Of a stretch of DNA of 64,000 bases, positions 1-63,002 are shown piece after piece. Every line of letters starts with the position of its first letter. Positions within the stretch are counted from its first letter, which is position 1. Source of the stretch: TPA_inf: Saccharomyces (taxonomy: Eukaryota). The notes under the pieces are model-generated. The model was given only the letters and a program-made list of their open reading frames with translations, did no database searches and had not been told where the DNA came from. Where the stretch lies: contig BK006941.2 in NCBI GenBank assembly GCA_000146045.2, forward strand, positions 1 through 64,000, given 5' to 3'. Made by a program: the position numbers and the translations under genes.

Positions 1-62
1 CCACACCCACACACACCACACCCACACCCACACACTACCCTAACACTACCCTAACCCTATTC
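1..62. repeat. Terminal telomeric repeat tract (C1-3A on the given strand, equivalent to TG1-3), left chromosome end
   Basis: The sequence opens with ccacacccacacacaccacacccacacccacaca, the irregular C1-3A pattern of S. cerevisiae telomeres. It sits at the window edge with the C-rich strand written 5'->3', as expected for a left telomere. Confidence 0.9.
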
Positions 63-27920: not shown

Positions 27921-30900
27921 TCATTCAAACTCTATATCGGAACCCAAGAAATCCAGATCACCATTCGGATCACTTATTGAGCTCGCCGCTGTATTACTAG
28001 AATAACTATCGGATGATTCAAGATCAATAGGAATTATTTCAGGGCAGTTTTCGGGGCCTGATTTTAGGACTTGTTCACCCGCTTCCATAGACGACATCTG
28101 TTGCGATAGATTATAAATTTTTGAAGGAAGTGTATGAACTGTCGCAATATCTGTATTTTCTTCTTGCCACTGCTTTGGTTTACTATTCAGTCTTTTTTCC
28201 AGGTGAGGGGTTGTGTTGATATTTTTTGCAAGCAGTGGCTGGCGTATTTGATCAGGTTTTGATACTGGCTTGATTGAGGAGGGTCCTTTTTCTTTTATAT
28301 ACTTTACTGGAATACCCTCTTTACAACATAAATGTCTGCATTGCGTTTTGTCTTTGCAGCTATGAAAACACTCGTAATTGCCATTAGATCTTACTTGGCG
28401 GCCATTACTAAAATGTGAAGAAGAGTGTGCCTCCGGGTGAATAACTGCTGCAGATTCAACCGCCTTTGATGATTTCTTCCTTTCATTCAAATAATCTAGT
28501 ATACTATCATCTGAGGATAGCGATTCTTCTAATCCATCTTTATGGGAAACCCTAGACGTTTTCCCCACTTCTCCGTCACTACTGCTTTCATAGAAGAGGC
28601 ATTTTTCTAAACTATTTAGATCTTTCCTTATATTTGGTGTCTTCGCAGAGAACTGTGATGCCAAATGATCAGTGGAATATACGATTGTTTTGCCGAGTCC
28701 GGCGATTTCTTGGCAATGAATTGAGAATTCTATTTTTTCTAGTTTTGGTGATATTTTTGCTGAAATTCTAAAGCCCCTTGGTGACTGTAGTTTGTTAACT
28801 TGCAATCTTCTAAAGTCGATTAACTCTCCTGAGCTTTTCTCGGTTTCGATATCTAATGAGAGGTGCTGACCATGCCAAATGCTAGACTTGAATGTTGCAC
28901 TAATCTCAACTTTAAATGTCAACCACAACTCTTCATTTTCTATTTTGCAATTTTCTAGTTTTGTTCTAATATTCAGACAAGGCAACAAAGAAATGTCGTT
29001 TTTAATTTTTATGCCGTTTCCAATCTTGAGGTTAAGATAGTATTCAATCTGAGTATCTGACAAATGCCCCATTTCTTCTAGATTGGTAATTCCATGTCGT
29101 ATTAGCCTTCTTACTGAAACTAGTCCAATTGTTTTCAATTGCCTAAGAACCATTGGCGTGTTTTCCCAGCAGTGACCATTCAGGCTTCGCAGTAAGAACA
29201 AAGTATTTTTCAGTGATGTTCCATCACTTTTTTCAATAAATGTGTCTACCATGCATTTTAGTAATCTAAAACAATGTCTAAAAACGAGGAATTTATCCTG
29301 AACAAGAGTTTGATGTAGTTTAGAAGCGCCTTCGTATGATGGAAATTCTAACCCACCTAACTCATATTGAATCAAAAGAGAAACCTTTTGACTAACCCTG
29401 TCAATTATTTGGCTCTGTTTCTTCTCGGTTAAAAATGGATATTTCAAAAGTGGCGATAAATTGATTTCTTTGAACAATTTTTTTTCATTGTGCCTCACCC
29501 TCATAACTGAAAACTCTTCAGAAGTGGCCAGTAAATTTAGTATCCCTTGTAATGATAGAAATTTTTTTGCGTTAATGAATTGTTTCATCGACTCAAAGGA
29601 TATATAATGTCGCGTCATTGCATTTCCGTACGCTGTAGATTTGTACTCCCCATTGCTGATATCGATTATTTTCACTTTTACTAAGGTGTCAAGCAAATAC
29701 TGACAGAATTGATTTATCTGAGAGTCTTCAACGGAATGAAAACTAACGTATCTGTTCACCTCTTGATATGCAGCTGGATTCTTCCCAAATCTAACGTAAA
29801 AGAATGTGTTTCGTAGCCAATTTACTGCAGTTTCAATTGAATATACAGTTTCCAAAGAGGTTTCTGCTGCTAAATGCTCGATCAAATTCAAATGTAATGA
29901 ACTTTCCAAAACGTCAGTTCCATGAATTAAGTTTTCATATGTTTGCTTCATTTTAGAGTCTGTCATGATTACTGCGCACCCGTGAGTTTCAAATTGAGGT
30001 CTTCCTGCCCGCCCAATCATTTGCAGTACATCTAGGTCTGAATACTCTTGGATTTCAGAAGAGTTCCAACTTTTGGTGCCTTTGATAATGACCAAATATG
30101 CGGGAAGGTTCACACCAACAGCTAACGTTGAAGTTGAACACAATATATTAATTGAACCTGCAAGAAATTCTTTCTCAACGGCAGTACGGTCTTCTAAAGA
30201 AATTCCAGCATGATGGAAAGCGATACCTTGTTGCATACATTCATTTAATATTTTATCGGAGGGATTATGATTACATCTTTTCTTACTTTTTGAAAAAATA
30301 TGATTATTTAATAAAAATTTTGCTGTTGATATAGTTGAAGCCCTAGTCGGACAAAATATTAGTACGGGACGATTATCGGCATGCTTTTCAATTATTTCAA
30401 TCAATTTGGAATTATATATAGCATCTTTTTGGAAGTCATTTTTGCAATTGAAGGAGTACCCATAAACAAACTTCGTTAACTGAACTTGCCTGTACGATTC
30501 GTCAAAAGAAAGAATATTTGCAGGAAGCTCGTTGTTAGTTTTGAGCCACAATGCTAGGTCTTCTATATTTGGAACTGTTGCACTTAAAGCAACAAACCGA
30601 ATGTTTTGACACATTGTATTCATCCTTGTCAGAATTACTTCCAAAGATGCTCCTCTTTTCTCCTTTATGGTATGAATCTCATCAACTAGGACAAGTTTGA
30701 CCAATTCGAATAATCGGCTGTAATCGGACCATCTTCTTGTTAACAAATCCCATTTTTCTGGTGTCGTAATTATTATGTTACATTTTTTAGCCTTTTCAGT
30801 TTCCAGAAAAGAGGTATCACTAGTAAGCATACCAACAGAAAGATTCACAAAGGAAGGAAACCAGTTCTTGTACATCTCGTAACATAGAGATTTGGTTGGC

Positions 30901-31636
30901 GCGATGTATATAATTTTGGTGTTATTGGTATCACTATTTGTTTCCTTTATAAGACGTAATATTGCCAATTCAAATAATACAGTCTTGCCTGATCCGGTTG
31001 GTGAAGAAATTATGCAGTTCTCGTTACTCTCATAAATACTAGGAAAAGCCTCTGATTGCATTTTATTAAATTCTGTAAATTTAAAAACCCCTCTGAATGA
31101 ATCTGGTAATATGGTCGTGCTCAAACATTTCTTCGCTGATTTCCTTATCGTGACCTTCTTAGGTTTCTTCGCCTCTTCATCAGGTGTCTGCTCTAAATCG
31201 TGATCAAATAATTTACTAGTTACTTGTGTATCATCTGCTGTTATTGAAAAATTATCGTCTTTGTCGAAGAATTGCAGACCACGGCCCTCAAATATTTCCT
31301 CTGTTTCATTTTCATCATCACAATCATCCAGTAAACTGTTATAAGACAAACCTACTTTAAAACTTGGTTGGCGGCTATTTTTCTTATTTCTTTTAAATGT
31401 AGCAGACTGGTCGTTAAAGTCAATATCTATAAGTCCTCTGAAATTCTAGTCCAGAAAAACCACTTTTGGTTGCATTTCCGCTAGATAATAAAAGAAAGAG
31501 GTAACAATGTTAGTCAAAATACTGTTGTTGTCCGATATGGTGTAAACTGATAAGGGTGTTGCTAAGCTTCGTTACTACTATTTGGAGAGGGTCTACTTCT
31601 TTTTCCTGTACCGAGGCGATCAAACTTTGTTTTCAT
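27921..31636 (-). CDS. HFM1: Meiosis-specific DExH-box DNA helicase (ZMM crossover protein), 1187 aa, two exons: complement(join(27921..31426,31579..31636))
   Basis: Exon 2 carries the helicase motifs SSPTGSGKTVLFELAILRL and DEIH plus a Sec63-like C-terminus. Exon 1 is ATGAAAACAAAGTTTGATCGCCTCGGTACAGGAAAAAGAAGTAGACCCTCTCCAAATA (58 nt, MKTKFDRLGTGKRSRPSPN). The two join in frame across a 152-nt intron to give ...SPNNIDFNDQSATFKRNKK.... The total of 3564 nt equals 1187 aa plus a stop codon. Confidence 0.8.
31427..31578 (-). other. HFM1/MER3 intron (152 nt) with a non-canonical 5' splice site GTAGTA, a Mer1-type enhancer ACACCCTT, a GACTAAC branch-like site and a TTATAG 3' splice site
   Basis: The minus-strand intron reads gtagtaacgaagcttagcaacacccttatcag...ttttgactaacattg...ggacttatag. 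Without splicing, exon 1 runs into a TAG after 24 codons. The spliced frame is continuous. Confidence 0.7.
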
Positions 31637-31897
31637 CCTTACGACGCCTCTTAAGTTGTCAAATCCACCTTGAGGTATCAATCATTTTCAATGAAAGGAT
31701 TTCTTGATAGATGATACTAATAGTCCCGTTTTGTTTATAATCCGGGGCAAAGTCTAAATACCCGCCGAGCCTGCATCCATTCGTGGTACATGATATGTTA
31801 AAACTACAACAAGGCATAAAAAAGGGAAGTATATATGATTAATTATATATACGTAAAGGAAAAGATACGTAGTTAAAGATTGTTTTTGTTGGTATCA

Positions 31898-32635
31898 ATG
31901 GAATCAAAGATGAGTGAAGAAGAAGCGCATAAAACAGTGGAGGTGGATGACGTCGGGGTTCAATTGGATGAGGGCGATGAAGAAGACCTTTTGGAGTATG
32001 ATGATGAACTCGTGGAGGAACAACCATCGGACGCCCGTATACGCAACGTGGCAGAGACTTTAATGAAAAGCGAATTGCCCAAAGTCACCGTGGAATATAA
32101 AGATACTACATTTCTGTTGTTCACGTCGGATGATAAGAACGAAAGTAACAACCCCATAATATGTGAAAACGCTGCTCTTTATCAGCGACCCATGGGGGAA
32201 TTCATGGAATCCATTCGTAAATTTATGGGAAATCGTTTTGGCAGGTTGGCTTTTGCTACGAAGGAGTTGGTTTTACAACTGAAAAGCCTCGATTTGACCT
32301 TGTTCGAAGATAATGTCTACAACAACCATATTTCATTCAGCGATGTTTATACTATATTTAAAATCCTGAAGGAAAGATCGGAGTCTAATTTTGAAACTGA
32401 TATACCGACGCACTTGGCTATTGAATTAAGTACAAGGCCAAGATTTGTCTCTCGGTACAACGCCTTGGTTGAATTAACTGAAAGCTCAGCTACGTTGAAA
32501 AACATAAAGCCATTTTCTAACGATGAAACGCATCCCTTAATTGTGGATGACAATGACCAATATACACACCAGAATACTTCAGAAGTCATTGTAATGGACA
32601 TAGATGATGACGTAGGTGAGGATTCTGAAGACTAA
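31898..32635 (+). CDS. RMR1: Meiotic recombination protein of unknown biochemical function, YGL250W/RMR1; the start may instead be the second ATG at 31910
   Basis: Acidic ORF (MESKMSEEEAHKTVEVDD...). The track ORF begins at a TTG at 31880. In-frame ATGs occur at 31898 and 31910. Confidence 0.55.
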   Translation: MESKMSEEEAHKTVEVDDVGVQLDEGDEEDLLEYDDELVEEQPSDARIRNVAETLMKSELPKVTVEYKDTTFLLFTSDDKNESNNPIICENAALYQRPMGEFMESIRKFMGNRFGRLAFATKELVLQLKSLDLTLFEDNVYNNHISFSDVYTIFKILKERSESNFETDIPTHLAIELSTRPRFVSRYNALVELTESSATLKNIKPFSNDETHPLIVDDNDQYTHQNTSEVIVMDIDDDVGEDSED

Positions 32636-33097
32636 AGTAGCCATGTTTAATCAGCACTGATCGTGGGAAATCCTGATGTCCAACGGTGAGTTTCTGATTT
32701 CCCAGTCACGGATTCCTTTTGAGAATCTTCTCCCGCGAATAAATTATTGGCTCTGTGTAATATTTAAGGTCGCCTTCTTTTTCGTTTGTATAGTCAGCAG
32801 TTAAGTATTCATTAATTTTGGATGATGCAAAGGTCCATATTCGATTTCTGATAGCCCTTCCCCCTTTTTTGTAGCGAATTGTATTATTGTTTTGTATTGT
32901 TTTTTCGTCATTTTCTTCAATTTTTTTCAAGTTTTACTTTCGGAAGAATTGCTGAAAGTATTTTCTGTTAGGATATGTAAAATACAAGCATAAAATATGT
33001 TTCAGGAGAAGAAAATCACTCAATAGTGCCACACCATTGTTAACGAGCTCGAGTAATTGAATCAATTTAGAGAAATAGATCATATTACAAAAATACT

Positions 33098-35212
33098 ATG
33101 ATTATTGAACGTTGGGAAGTAAAGTTATCTAAATGTAACCAAAATGTGGGCGGCTATTCTGTTCTGTCAGGAAACTTAAAAGAAAACATCAAACTGGGAA
33201 GACGAGCACAAAAATATTTGAAAGAGCTAAGAAATTTGCAACTTAAACCACTGAAAATCGGAGGGTATGAAAACTGCGGCACGATCAATGGTGAAGAGTA
33301 TTTTTTGGAGGTAATTCACATCACCTCTGGAAGACAAAAAATAGATGTAGCCGTTGGCAAAACATGGAATGTGACTAACATTGAGAATGACAACAAAGAA
33401 GAACTACAGTATGAGTTATTCAAGGAAAAGTTAAAAGTCGGGAAACAGGACATGTTATTTTTTAGCTGGATGAAAAGTCTTTCAGTTCAATTAAATGCTC
33501 CTCTTCACCAAAAAATGACGGAACACGGTTTGGCAGACGATAACACGAGGTTAGAGTGGTTCAACATCCCACTTCTCAGAAGAAGTCAATACAGGAAAAA
33601 GGTACCATATCCGAGTTTAAGACAAATGTCCTCTGTACTGGAAGTGCAATGCAGCACACTAACGGAGGAAAAGTTGAACTTCTGCGTTGGATTTTCTGAT
33701 AAACCTTTGTCAGAATGGAAGCCCCAAATTTTTGAGCAAACCTACAATAGATACCGTTTACAACGGATCTCACCTGAGAAATCTTTCAAATATAAGAGTA
33801 GGTGCAGTAAGTACAATTTCAAGACCAGTTCGCAAAGCTGGGTTGTGAAAGTCCCAGAACATGATCAACAGCTTAATACGTTTGAAAAACGTTATGATGA
33901 ACTCTTTGATGCTCAATTTAATAAACTAGAATTTTTTAAAATAAGAATGAAAAAATTGAAAAAGAATAAGCCAATTGAGAAAAAGAACTATAAAATATGG
34001 TGTCTAGAAAAAGAAGACCTAAAGGATTTGGTATGGGATCCTCTGAAAAGAATTTGCAATCATTCTAGGTATGCAATATTTGAGCATGTTACCATAAATA
34101 GGGAGGCCTATTCGATCAAACCATTAAGGTTAACTTTTCAAAAATTAGATTCCGGCTCCCTTGACCTGATCGATAATCAAAAAAAGACGTTTGGTAGTAT
34201 AAAGCTTGCAATGAGTATGCCAGATGTAAAAAAAACTGAAAATCAGTCAATTGAAGAAAGTGAAAGACACGATGAAACTGCTATTGAAACCCAAGAATTT
34301 GATGAAAATGATTGTCTTTCATCTAAGGCGGATATTAATACATCATTAGCTCCTCAAAAGAGATCTTTCATCGATAATGAACTAATGTCCATGTTAGTCA
34401 CCAAAAAAAAAATAAAGAAGGACAAGGATGTTAGTGACACCGGTATATCTTCCACTTCATACTTGATAAATTCTGGGACATATGCAAATTCTCATATTGA
34501 AATTCCTACCTCTAATTCAGTTTACAATGGAAAGGAAGATTGCTCATTTAATAACTACTCAGTAAAGCATTCAATATTGGAAGAAGATATTGAGAATAAA
34601 TGCATAGCCGTAAATGAAAACAAGGTGATTGAGAACCAAAAGGTAATTCAGTCATTATGTAAAAATTCCCATCTAGACCTTATCGAACAATCTTACTTTG
34701 GCGAATGCGATTTCATTATAAACCATTCAACATGTGTATATAAAATTCAGGCGAGCCGATTTATGCAACTCAGAAATAACGGCTCATTGCATTACGATAA
34801 AGCGGTAAACGATCTTTTAACTGAATTTCAGAGAGTCATTATAATTGTGGAGTTTTCTGAAATAATACAAGACGTTGATCCTGATCTTTTCTGGAAAATC
34901 AAACTTTATTTATTGAATTCACGTGTTGATGTTTTTTTCATTCATGAGACTACTGACTTTTTTATTGATTGGATGAAATATTTCATTGCAAGATGGGCCT
35001 TTTCATATAACGATGAGAAAGAAAAAAATATTGCAAATGCCGATATTCTTCTAGATTTGGGATTTAACATCCTCTTAGTACGGAAAATTTTCCAGACATA
35101 TAGTCTCGAAGAATTTTTTATGGCAATAATAAAGGAAGAAAGCAAAGCTGTTAAAATGCTTACGGTTTCACAAATGACTCGCCTGAAGAAGTTATTAACC
35201 TTAGAATGGTAA
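33098..35212 (+). CDS. ZIP2: Synaptonemal-complex initiation / ZMM crossover protein, 704 aa
   Basis: 704-aa ORF matching ZIP2 in length and position, with an XPF-like C-terminal region. ATG confirmed at 33098. Confidence 0.7.
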   Translation: MIIERWEVKLSKCNQNVGGYSVLSGNLKENIKLGRRAQKYLKELRNLQLKPLKIGGYENCGTINGEEYFLEVIHITSGRQKIDVAVGKTWNVTNIENDNKEELQYELFKEKLKVGKQDMLFFSWMKSLSVQLNAPLHQKMTEHGLADDNTRLEWFNIPLLRRSQYRKKVPYPSLRQMSSVLEVQCSTLTEEKLNFCVGFSDKPLSEWKPQIFEQTYNRYRLQRISPEKSFKYKSRCSKYNFKTSSQSWVVKVPEHDQQLNTFEKRYDELFDAQFNKLEFFKIRMKKLKKNKPIEKKNYKIWCLEKEDLKDLVWDPLKRICNHSRYAIFEHVTINREAYSIKPLRLTFQKLDSGSLDLIDNQKKTFGSIKLAMSMPDVKKTENQSIEESERHDETAIETQEFDENDCLSSKADINTSLAPQKRSFIDNELMSMLVTKKKIKKDKDVSDTGISSTSYLINSGTYANSHIEIPTSNSVYNGKEDCSFNNYSVKHSILEEDIENKCIAVNENKVIENQKVIQSLCKNSHLDLIEQSYFGECDFIINHSTCVYKIQASRFMQLRNNGSLHYDKAVNDLLTEFQRVIIIVEFSEIIQDVDPDLFWKIKLYLLNSRVDVFFIHETTDFFIDWMKYFIARWAFSYNDEKEKNIANADILLDLGFNILLVRKIFQTYSLEEFFMAIIKEESKAVKMLTVSQMTRLKKLLTLEW

Positions 35213-62074: not shown

Positions 62075-63002
62075 ATGGGTGAAAAACGTAACCGTAATGG
62101 TAAGGATGCAAATTCCCAAAACAGGAAGAAAGTATGTCTGTCTGCACACGAATTAGAGTTCTTTAAGTACTAACGATCAAAAGTAATAGTTTAAAGTATC
62201 TTCCGGATTCTTAGACCCTGGTACGTCTGGAATATATGCCACATGTTCTAGAAGACATGAACGTCAAGCAGCCCAAGAGTTGCAGCTTTTATTCGAAGAA
62301 AAATTTCAAGAACTCTATGGGGATATCAAAGAAGGAGAAGATGAAAGTGAAAATGACGAAAAGAAAGATCTATCAATTGAAGACCAGATAAAAAAGGAAT
62401 TACAAGAATTGAAAGGTGAAGAAACAGGCAAAGATTTATCTTCAGGGGAGACAAAGAAGAAAGACCCCTTAGCCTTCATCGACTTGAACTGTGAGTGCGT
62501 GACATTTTGTAAAACAAGAAAGCCAATTGTTCCCGAAGAATTTGTGCTAAGTATCATGAAAGACTTAGCGGATCCCAAAAATATGGTTAAACGTACTAGA
62601 TATGTTCAGAAATTAACACCTATTACGTACTCTTGTAATGCAAAAATGGAGCAATTAATCAAGTTGGCCAATTTGGTTATTGGGCCACACTTTCATGACC
62701 CTTCGAATGTTAAAAAAAATTATAAATTTGCTGTAGAAGTGACAAGAAGAAATTTCAATACGATTGAAAGAATGGACATCATTAATCAAGTTGTGAAGCT
62801 GGTCAATAAAGAGGGTTCTGAGTTTAATCATACTGTGGACTTGAAGAACTATGATAAATTGATTCTAGTGGAATGTTTTAAGAGCAATATCGGAATGTGT
62901 GTAGTCGATGGGGATTATAAAACCAAATATCGTAAATACAACGTTCAACAGCTTTATGAATCGAAATTCCGAAAGGATGAAGATAAGAGTGTAAAACAAT
63001 AA
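62075..63002 (+). CDS. TAN1: tRNA ac4C-formation protein (THUMP domain), 289 aa, two exons: join(62075..62131,62190..63002)
   Basis: Exon 1 is ATGGGTGAAAAACGTAACCGTAATGGTAAGGATGCAAATTCCCAAAACAGGAAGAAA (MGEKRNRNGKDANSQNRKK). It is followed by a canonical GTATGT, a TACTAAC branch point about 15 nt before the AG at 62188-62189, and exon 2 starting FKVSSGFLDPGTSGIYATCSRRHERQAAQELQLLFEEKF... in the frame of the track ORF. That ORF begins at a TTG at 62280. Confidence 0.75.
62132..62189 (+). other. TAN1 intron (58 nt; GTATGT...TACTAAC...AG)
   Basis: The 5' splice site gtatgt is at 62132. The branch point tactaac is at about 62168-62174. The 3' splice site aatag lies immediately upstream of tttaaagtatc. 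Confidence 0.75.

What the first reader, a model, noticed from the sequence alone, without database searches (positions are those of the whole stretch)
31427..31636. MER3 intron with non-canonical GTAGTA donor and an intronic Mer1 enhancer (ACACCCTT)
Exon 1 is only 58 nt. The intron begins gtagta rather than GTATGT and contains a match to the Mer1 enhancer consensus AYACCCUY, about 25 nt in, at plus-strand 31552-31559. It uses a non-consensus branch-like gactaac about 80 nt from the 3' splice site, and ends ttatag. Unspliced message terminates after 24 codons. This is the classic architecture of Mer1-dependent, meiosis-restricted splicing, so expression of the helicase is gated at the splicing level.
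Basis: partly seen in the sequence, partly recalled or inferred. Interest (0 to 1): 0.55.

Follow-up and report, generated by a model that had tools for sequence, protein, structure and literature searches.

The report
Known Mer1-regulated MER3 meiotic intron

Summary
Exon 1 is 31636-31579 (58 nt). The intron is 31578-31427 (152 nt), with GTAGTA donor, ACACCCTT at intron nt 20-27, GACTAAC branch site 83 nt from the TATAG acceptor. Unspliced RNA stops after 24 codons. Splicing gives an 1187-aa protein that matches the S. cerevisiae S288C Mer3/Hfm1 entry at 100% identity.

Qiu, Schwer & Shuman 2011 (PMC3082912) list the same features and tested them:
- Splicing was 3% without Mer1 and 53% with it, and 2% in nam8-delta.
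- GUAGUA to GUAUGU raised Mer1-independent splicing to 75%.
- CCC to GGG in the enhancer abolished activation.

I added a comparison of five Saccharomyces alleles:
- Exon 1 is always 58 nt and GTAGTAACGAA is invariant.
- The enhancer is always at intron nt 20-27.
- The branch-to-acceptor distance is 81-84 nt.

Naumovozyma dairenensis has a different weak donor (GTATAA) but ATACCCTT at the same offset.

One unpublished-looking detail is a hairpin predicted in all five alleles between branch site and acceptor. It encloses all decoy AGs, but covariation support is lacking.

Verdict: observation confirmed, interpretation supported, already known, low interest.

The parts
31579..31636 (-). MER3/HFM1 exon 1 (58 nt; ATG at 31636-31634; 19 codons plus 1 nt, so the intron is phase 1)
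   Evidence: Exon 1 is exactly 58 nt in all five Saccharomyces alleles, with the peptide MKTKFD... conserved.
31427..31578 (-). The 152-nt spliceosomal intron
   Evidence: Removing it restores an 1187-aa ORF that matches S288C Mer3 at 100% identity. Described in PMC3082912.
31573..31578 (-). Non-consensus 5' splice site GTAGTA (consensus GTATGT)
   Evidence: GTAGTAACGAA is invariant in five Saccharomyces alleles. Published: found in no other yeast intron and the principal determinant of Mer1/Nam8 dependence.
31552..31559 (-). Mer1 intronic splicing enhancer ACACCCTT (consensus AYACCCUY), intron nt 20-27
   Evidence: Same offset in five Saccharomyces alleles (ACACCCTT x3, ATACCCTT, ACACCTTT) and in N. 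dairenensis (ATACCCTT). CCC to GGG abolishes Mer1-activated splicing.
31509..31515 (-). Non-consensus branch site GACTAAC (branch A at 31510)
   Evidence: GACTAAC in four alleles and TACTAAC in one. Repair to the consensus raises basal splicing only from 3% to 12%.
31490..31501 (-). 12-nt polypyrimidine tract CCTCTTTCTTTT just 3' of the branch site
   Evidence: Read from the sequence; noted in PMC3082912.
31435..31501 (-). Predicted structured domain between branch site and acceptor: outer stem CCUCU/AGAGG plus inner hairpin UCUAG.../...CUAGA (31445-31485). It encloses all five intervening AGs. This is an inference, not shown.
   Evidence: The same architecture appears in independent folds of all five alleles and in the RNAalifold consensus. 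Z-scores are -0.8 (this window), -2.9, -3.6, -2.6 and -4.1. The covariation test is not significant.
31427..31429 (-). 3' splice site TAG, 83 nt from the branch A
   Evidence: TAG in four alleles and AAG in one; the distance is 81-84 nt in all five.
27921..31426 (-). MER3/HFM1 exon 2, including the stop codon
31759..31768 (-). URS1-like element TCGGCGGGTA, 123-132 nt upstream of the ATG. Likely the early-meiotic transcriptional control site (inference).
   Evidence: 4 near-matches in the window against 0.79 expected. GGCGGGTA is invariant in four Saccharomyces sequences.

Best explanation
This is the single intron of Saccharomyces cerevisiae MER3/HFM1 (YGL251C by my recollection), a member of the Mer1 splicing regulon. 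The window looks like the left end of chromosome VII.

The donor GUAGUA pairs poorly with U1 snRNA, and the branch site GACUAAC is also off-consensus. In vegetative cells the pre-mRNA is therefore almost never spliced, and translation stops after 24 codons.

In meiosis the KH-domain protein Mer1 is made. It binds ACACCCUU at intron nt 20-27 and, together with the U1 snRNP subunit Nam8, stabilises U1 (and U2) on the weak sites. The intron is then removed and the 1187-aa helicase is made. Splicing is a second gate on top of meiotic transcriptional induction.

Shown by published experiments:
- dependence on Mer1 and on Nam8;
- the causal role of the donor;
- the need for the CCC core of the enhancer.

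Shown here:
- the anatomy;
- the gene's identity;
- conservation of each element.

Inferred: the exact way Mer1 contacts U1 and U2, which a 2024 review still calls unknown.
For: Anatomy and restoration of the ORF. Identity with S288C Mer3. Helicase domains.

Published tests (PMC3082912):
- 80% spliced in wild-type meiosis against 2% in nam8-delta.
- 3% against 53% in vegetative cells without and with Mer1.
- GUAUGU repair gives 75% Mer1-independent and 83% Nam8-independent splicing.
- Branch-site repair gives only 12%.
- Enhancer CCC to GGG abolishes activation.

The review PMC11585973 places the enhancer 18-25 nt from the 5' splice site in all four Mer1 targets.

Conservation among five Saccharomyces alleles, mean pairwise identity: donor 1.00, enhancer 0.90, branch site 0.94, against 0.56 for the rest of the intron. 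Exon 1 length and enhancer offset do not vary. N. dairenensis has a weak donor GTATAA with ATACCCTT at the same offset. A reporter carrying the GUAgua donor splices extremely inefficiently (bioRxiv 10.64898/2026.01.21.700889).
Against: Nothing found here contradicts it.

Caveats:
- The octamer alone is no rarer than chance in this window.
- One Saccharomyces allele has ACACCTTT, outside the strict consensus. The matching CCU change in the SPO22 enhancer had no apparent effect on Mer1-activated splicing.
- The branch point was inferred from sequence and from the effect of repairing it. No paper I could read maps it directly.
- I could not read the original papers (Nakagawa & Ogawa 1999; Spingola & Ares 2000).
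Confidence: 0.97

Rival explanations
1. The intron is real, but the ACACCCTT match is a chance occurrence. Gating would then come only from the weak donor and Nam8 or general spliceosome availability, not from Mer1 binding here.
For: AYACCCTY occurs 8 times in the window against 5.7 expected by chance, so the octamer alone carries no weight.
Against: The octamer sits at intron nt 20-27 in five Saccharomyces alleles and in N. dairenensis, while flanking intron sequence is only about 56% identical. CCC to GGG abolishes Mer1-activated MER3 splicing.
Confidence: 0.01
2. There is no intron. The helicase would start inside the long ORF (27921-31349), and the upstream ATG would be an unrelated short ORF.
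For: A purely mechanical ORF call gives a 1142-aa ORF without exon 1. Many automatic gene calls in public assemblies report exactly that (the 1142-aa entries).
Against: - The first ATG in the exon 2 frame falls at about residue 151, at the edge of the helicase domain.
- The exon 1 peptide MKTKFD..., its 58-nt length and all splice signals are conserved.
- Spliced and unspliced RT-PCR products have been measured directly.
Confidence: 0.01
3. The spliceosome mainly uses the first YAG after the branch site (intron nt 96-98, 29 nt downstream, next to the pyrimidine tract). Much of the splicing would then be non-productive, and acceptor choice would be a further gate.
For: Five AGs lie between the branch site and the annotated acceptor. 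Four of them lead to early stop codons. An 83-nt branch-to-acceptor distance is exceptional for yeast.
Against: The published product is the correctly spliced mRNA that uses the distal UAG. In every allele the proximal YAGs are predicted to be base-paired inside a hairpin (P unpaired 0.00-0.04 for the first YAG). Minor use of decoy sites cannot be excluded with these tools.
Confidence: 0.05

Closest known systems
The S. cerevisiae MER3/HFM1 intron as described by Nakagawa & Ogawa 1999, Spingola & Ares 2000 and Qiu, Schwer & Shuman 2011 (PMC3082912)
   Same: It is the same object. The paper lists GUAGUA, AYACCCUY near the 5' splice site, GACUAAC, the 83-nt branch-to-acceptor distance, the CCUCUUUCUUUU tract, the UAG acceptor and the 1187-aa product.
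   Different: Nothing differs. One small correction to the paper's wording: it calls use of the alternative acceptors 'out-of-frame'. The first YAG adds 54 nt and keeps the frame by length, as does the intervening AAG (+36 nt), but both bring in an in-frame stop.
The other Mer1-regulon introns: MER2/REC107, AMA1/SPO70, SPO22/ZIP4
   Same: [quoted passage not shown]
   Different: Only MER3 has GUAGUA, and it has an exceptionally long branch-to-acceptor distance. SPO22 has GUAUAU, AACUAAC and an AAG acceptor. Some Mer1 targets rely on a large 5' exon, whereas MER3 exon 1 is only 58 nt.
The PCH2 intron (Nam8-dependent, Mer1-independent)
   Same: Meiotic intron whose splicing needs the U1 subunit Nam8.
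   Different: PCH2 has no Mer1 enhancer and does not respond to Mer1.
Structure-guided 3' splice site choice in yeast introns with distant acceptors (Meyer et al. 2011, as cited in PMC11585973)
   Same: A stem-loop between branch site and acceptor can hide proximal AGs and shorten the effective distance (legend adapted from Meyer et al.). The predicted MER3 hairpin would work the same way.
   Different: For MER3 this rests only on my folding predictions. I found no paper that describes or tests it for this intron.

Membership tests
Mer1-dependent meiotic intron (Mer1 regulon) | Intronic enhancer matching AYACCCUY within about 18-25 nt of the 5' splice site | tested here: met
   ACACCCTT at intron nt 20-27. 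Conserved at the same offset in relatives.
Mer1-dependent meiotic intron (Mer1 regulon) | Suboptimal 5' splice site, sometimes with a suboptimal branch site | tested here: met
   GTAGTA against the consensus GTATGT, and GACTAAC against TACTAAC. The canonical intron at 62132-62189 in the same window has GTATGT and TACTAAC.
Mer1-dependent meiotic intron (Mer1 regulon) | Splicing in vivo requires Mer1 and Nam8, and the enhancer is needed for activation | not testable with these tools
   Published for this very intron: 3% against 53% without and with Mer1; 2% in nam8-delta; CCC to GGG abolishes activation (PMC3082912).
Mer1-dependent meiotic intron (Mer1 regulon) | Host gene is a meiosis-specific gene | tested here: met
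   The product matches S288C Mer3/Hfm1 at 100% identity. A conserved URS1-like element lies upstream. Meiotic induction is reported in PMC3082912.
Yeast spliceosomal intron | GU...branch site...AG whose removal restores a continuous reading frame | tested here: met
   Removing 152 nt gives an 1187-aa ORF with no internal stop; the unspliced RNA stops after 24 codons.
Mer3/HFM1 family helicase (Ski2-like, Sec63-domain) | DEAD/Helicase_C core followed by a winged-helix and a Sec63 domain | tested here: met
   Pfam: DEAD 6.4e-35, Helicase_C 5.2e-15, SNRNP200_wHTH 9e-08, Sec63 1.3e-28.

The most novel reading that the evidence does not exclude
The 83-nt branch-to-acceptor segment may not be passive spacer. 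It may be a conserved hairpin domain (outer stem CCUCU/AGAGG, inner stem UCUAG.../...CUAGA; window 31435-31501) that encloses all decoy AGs. That would bring the authentic UAG to an effective distance of about 20 nt from the branch site and add a so-far undescribed 3'-end layer to MER3 splicing control.

The same fold is predicted independently in five Saccharomyces alleles. Four of the five are significantly more stable than shuffled sequence. With only five sequences, covariation is not significant.
Probability: 0.35. Interest if true: 0.3.

Novelty: already known. Interest (0 to 1): 0.08.

Why it matters
MER3 is one of the four textbook examples of regulated splicing in budding yeast, so finding it confirms that the first-stage reader recognises real regulatory architecture. 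It adds no new biology.

Two things here go slightly beyond the papers I could read:
- The donor, the enhancer offset, the exon 1 length and the long branch-to-acceptor distance are all held fixed across Saccharomyces. The enhancer offset is also kept in Naumovozyma, even though the weak donor there is different.
- A hairpin predicted in all five alleles could explain why five upstream AGs are skipped.

Tried and rejected
Collecting orthologues. The searches were swamped by hundreds of near-identical S. cerevisiae strain entries. Only four non-reference Saccharomyces alleles could be recovered, and the sources do not name their species.

Introns in more distant species.
- T. phaffii (L008): no candidate intron was found.
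- Z. rouxii (L009): many candidates. The most plausible has a 70-nt exon 1, a GTAGAT donor and ATACCCCT at intron nt 32-39.
- An unnamed Vanderwaltozyma-like contig (L010): ambiguous.
- I drew no conclusion from any of these three.
- L007: my own intron model (GTAAGC donor, ATACTCTT at nt 45-52) is an inference only.

Papers not held. Nakagawa & Ogawa 1999 (PMC1171638) and Qiu et al. 2012 (PMC3479390) could not be read. Spingola & Ares 2000 is cited only through others.

Other negatives.
- No Rfam family and no tRNA in the window.
- The whole intron folds no better than shuffled sequence (z = 0.0).
- The covariation test on the hairpin was not significant.
- The hairpin is not mentioned for MER3 in the intron-structure or alternative-splice-site surveys I checked.

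Considered and rejected: a chance motif, no intron at all, and main use of a proximal acceptor (see the rival explanations).

Full report
OBSERVATION. On the minus strand the sequence reads ATG at 31636-31634, then 58 nt of coding sequence to 31579. The intron follows, GTAGTAACGAAGCTTAGCAACACCCTTATCAG...TTTTGACTAACATTG...GGACTTATAG, ending at 31427.
- The intron is 152 nt.
- ACACCCTT occupies intron nt 20-27 (31559-31552).
- GACTAAC occupies intron nt 64-70 (31515-31509).
- The branch A is 83 nt from the acceptor.
- Read-through translation gives MKTKFDRLGTGKRSRPSPNSSNEA and then a stop, 24 codons.
- Joining 31579 to 31426 gives a 3564-nt ORF of 1187 aa with no internal stop.

Every item in the finding is correct. 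The only looseness is 'about 25 nt in' for an element that starts at nt 20.

IS IT MORE THAN CHANCE? The octamer by itself is not. AYACCCTY occurs 8 times in the window against 5.7 expected. GTAGTA followed within 10-25 nt by the octamer occurs once against 0.03 expected, but that test is post hoc. The real evidence is identity, conservation and published experiments.

IDENTITY. The spliced product matches the S. cerevisiae S288C entry 'ATP-dependent DNA helicase MER3' at 100% identity. It has DEAD, Helicase_C, a winged-helix domain and a Sec63 domain. The window begins with C1-3A telomeric repeats. From my own memory, the ORF layout matches the left arm of chromosome VII, where MER3/HFM1 is YGL251C.

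WHAT IS PUBLISHED. Qiu, Schwer & Shuman 2011 (PMC3082912) describe this intron feature by feature:
- a rare branch site GACUAAC;
- an exceptionally long 83-nt branch-to-acceptor distance;
- a 12-nt pyrimidine tract CCUCUUUCUUUU;
- a UAG acceptor;
- three intervening YAGs;
- an 1187-aa product.

Their measurements:
- In meiosis MER3 is 80% spliced in wild type and 2% in nam8-delta.
- In vegetative cells it is 3% spliced without Mer1, 53% with Mer1, and 2% with Mer1 in nam8-delta.
- Repairing the donor to GUAUGU gives 75% splicing without Mer1 and 83% without Nam8.
- Repairing the branch site gives only 12%.
- Changing the enhancer CCC to GGG abolishes Mer1 activation.

A 2024 review (PMC11585973) lists MER3/HFM1 among the four Mer1 targets and places the enhancer 18-25 nt from the 5' splice site. 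It also notes that how Mer1 engages U1 and U2 is still unknown. A 2026 preprint reports that a reporter with the MER3 GUAgua donor splices extremely inefficiently.

MY OWN TEST: CONSERVATION. I recovered four other Saccharomyces-type MER3 loci. Their proteins are 79-89% identical to the reference. The sources do not name the species, and one allele (L005) comes from an assembly labelled S. cerevisiae. In all five alleles:
- exon 1 is exactly 58 nt;
- GTAGTAACGAA is invariant;
- the enhancer lies at intron nt 20-27 (ACACCCTT three times, ATACCCTT once, ACACCTTT once);
- the branch site is GACTAAC four times and TACTAAC once;
- the branch A is 81-84 nt from the acceptor (TAG four times, AAG once).

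Mean pairwise identity is 1.00 for the donor block, 0.90 for the enhancer and 0.94 for the branch site. It is 0.56-0.57 for the intervening intron sequence and 0.55 for the upstream region.

The ACACCTTT variant corresponds to the CCU change that had no apparent effect on Mer1-activated splicing in SPO22.

In Naumovozyma dairenensis the annotated intron has a 49-nt exon 1 and a different weak donor, GTATAA. ATACCCTT again sits at intron nt 20-27, with TACTAAC 45 nt from an AAG acceptor. For a random 108-nt intron the expected number of AYACCCTY matches is about 0.007, so the shared offset is unlikely to be chance.

This fits published reports that Mer1 is ancestral in budding yeasts, and that HFM1 has no detectable intron in Saccharomycodes ludwigii, which lacks MER1 (PMC8567612). 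Mer1 KH-domain homologues in other genera are shown in PMC3082912.

MECHANISM. The weak donor, helped a little by the off-consensus branch site, keeps basal splicing near zero. Unspliced RNA encodes only a 24-residue peptide. Mer1, made only in meiosis under Ime1 control, binds the enhancer. With Nam8 it stabilises early spliceosome assembly. Transcription is also meiotically induced, so expression of the helicase is gated twice. A URS1-like element, TCGGCGGGTA at 31759-31768, lies upstream of the ATG with its GGCGGGTA core invariant. Its role is my inference.

A SIDE OBSERVATION. Five AGs lie between the branch site and the authentic acceptor. I folded the branch-to-acceptor segment of each of the five alleles on its own.
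- Every allele gave the same architecture: an outer stem CCUCU/AGAGG and a long inner hairpin closed by the invariant arms UCUAG and CUAGA.
- It persists when the whole intron is folded and in the RNAalifold consensus.
- Z-scores against shuffles are -0.8 for this window and -2.9, -3.6, -2.6 and -4.1 for the others.
- The first decoy YAG, 28-29 nt from the branch A, has a predicted unpaired probability of 0.00-0.04 in all five alleles.
- All decoys lie inside the domain, and the authentic AG is the first one 3' of it.

This would explain acceptor choice by the known principle of structure-shortened effective distance (Meyer et al. 2011, as cited).

The support is limited. With five sequences, 85 of 500 shuffles reach the observed pairing and only one pair changes on both sides. 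The S. cerevisiae sequence itself is not unusually stable. I found no paper that mentions the structure for MER3, but the library is incomplete.

VERDICT. The feature is already known in detail. Interest is low.

Noticed in passing
window 31435-31501 (minus strand): The branch-to-acceptor segment of the MER3 intron is predicted to fold into one hairpin domain in five Saccharomyces alleles. The domain encloses all decoy AGs. Four of the five alleles are significantly more stable than shuffles, but covariation is not significant. I found no description of it for MER3 in the papers searched.
   Followed up: partly
window 31759-31768 (-) and 31368-31377 (+): Two URS1-like elements flank the MER3 start. 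One is upstream (TCGGCGGGTA). The other is inside exon 2 (TAGCCGCCAA on the coding strand, encoding NSRQ). Both cores are invariant across the Saccharomyces alignment. A third near-match lies at 33147-33156, just inside the neighbouring 704-aa ORF.
   Followed up: partly
window 62075-63002 (+): A second intron-containing gene with fully canonical signals. Exon 1 is 62075-62131. The intron is 62132-62189 (58 nt, GTATGT...TACTAAC...TAG). The product is 289 aa. It is a useful in-window contrast to the MER3 intron.
   Followed up: partly
window 31880-35212 and loci L001-L010: MER3 sits beside a DUF2420 gene (RMR1 by my recollection) and a 704-aa gene (ZIP2 by my recollection). The DUF2420 gene lies just upstream of MER3 wherever the recovered DNA reaches that far. 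RTG2 lies downstream in the Saccharomyces, N. dairenensis, Z. rouxii and L007 loci, but T. phaffii has a hexokinase gene there.
   Followed up: no
L005 2001-5712 (GCA_949123475.1, labelled S. cerevisiae): This assembly carries a MER3 allele only 82% identical in protein to the reference, so it is probably an introgressed or hybrid haplotype. Its intron keeps GTAGTA, ACACCCTT and GACTAAC but ends in AAG instead of TAG.
   Followed up: no
window 31436-31482 (minus strand): The intervening AGs at intron nt 97-98 and 115-116 would add 54 and 36 nt. They keep the frame by length but bring in stop codons. The GAG at nt 141-143 would give an in-frame product 3 residues longer. The published statement that alternative acceptors give 'out-of-frame' transcripts is therefore only loosely accurate.
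   Followed up: yes
window 1-60: The window starts with C1-3A telomeric repeats (CCACACCCACACAC...), so it is the end of a chromosome.
   Followed up: no
L009 1200-1376 (Zygosaccharomyces rouxii): The annotated Z. rouxii MER3 start looks truncated, because the reading frame stays open about 200 nt upstream of it. A tentative intron model has a 70-nt exon 1, a GTAGAT donor and ATACCCCT at intron nt 32-39. Other models cannot be excluded.
   Followed up: partly
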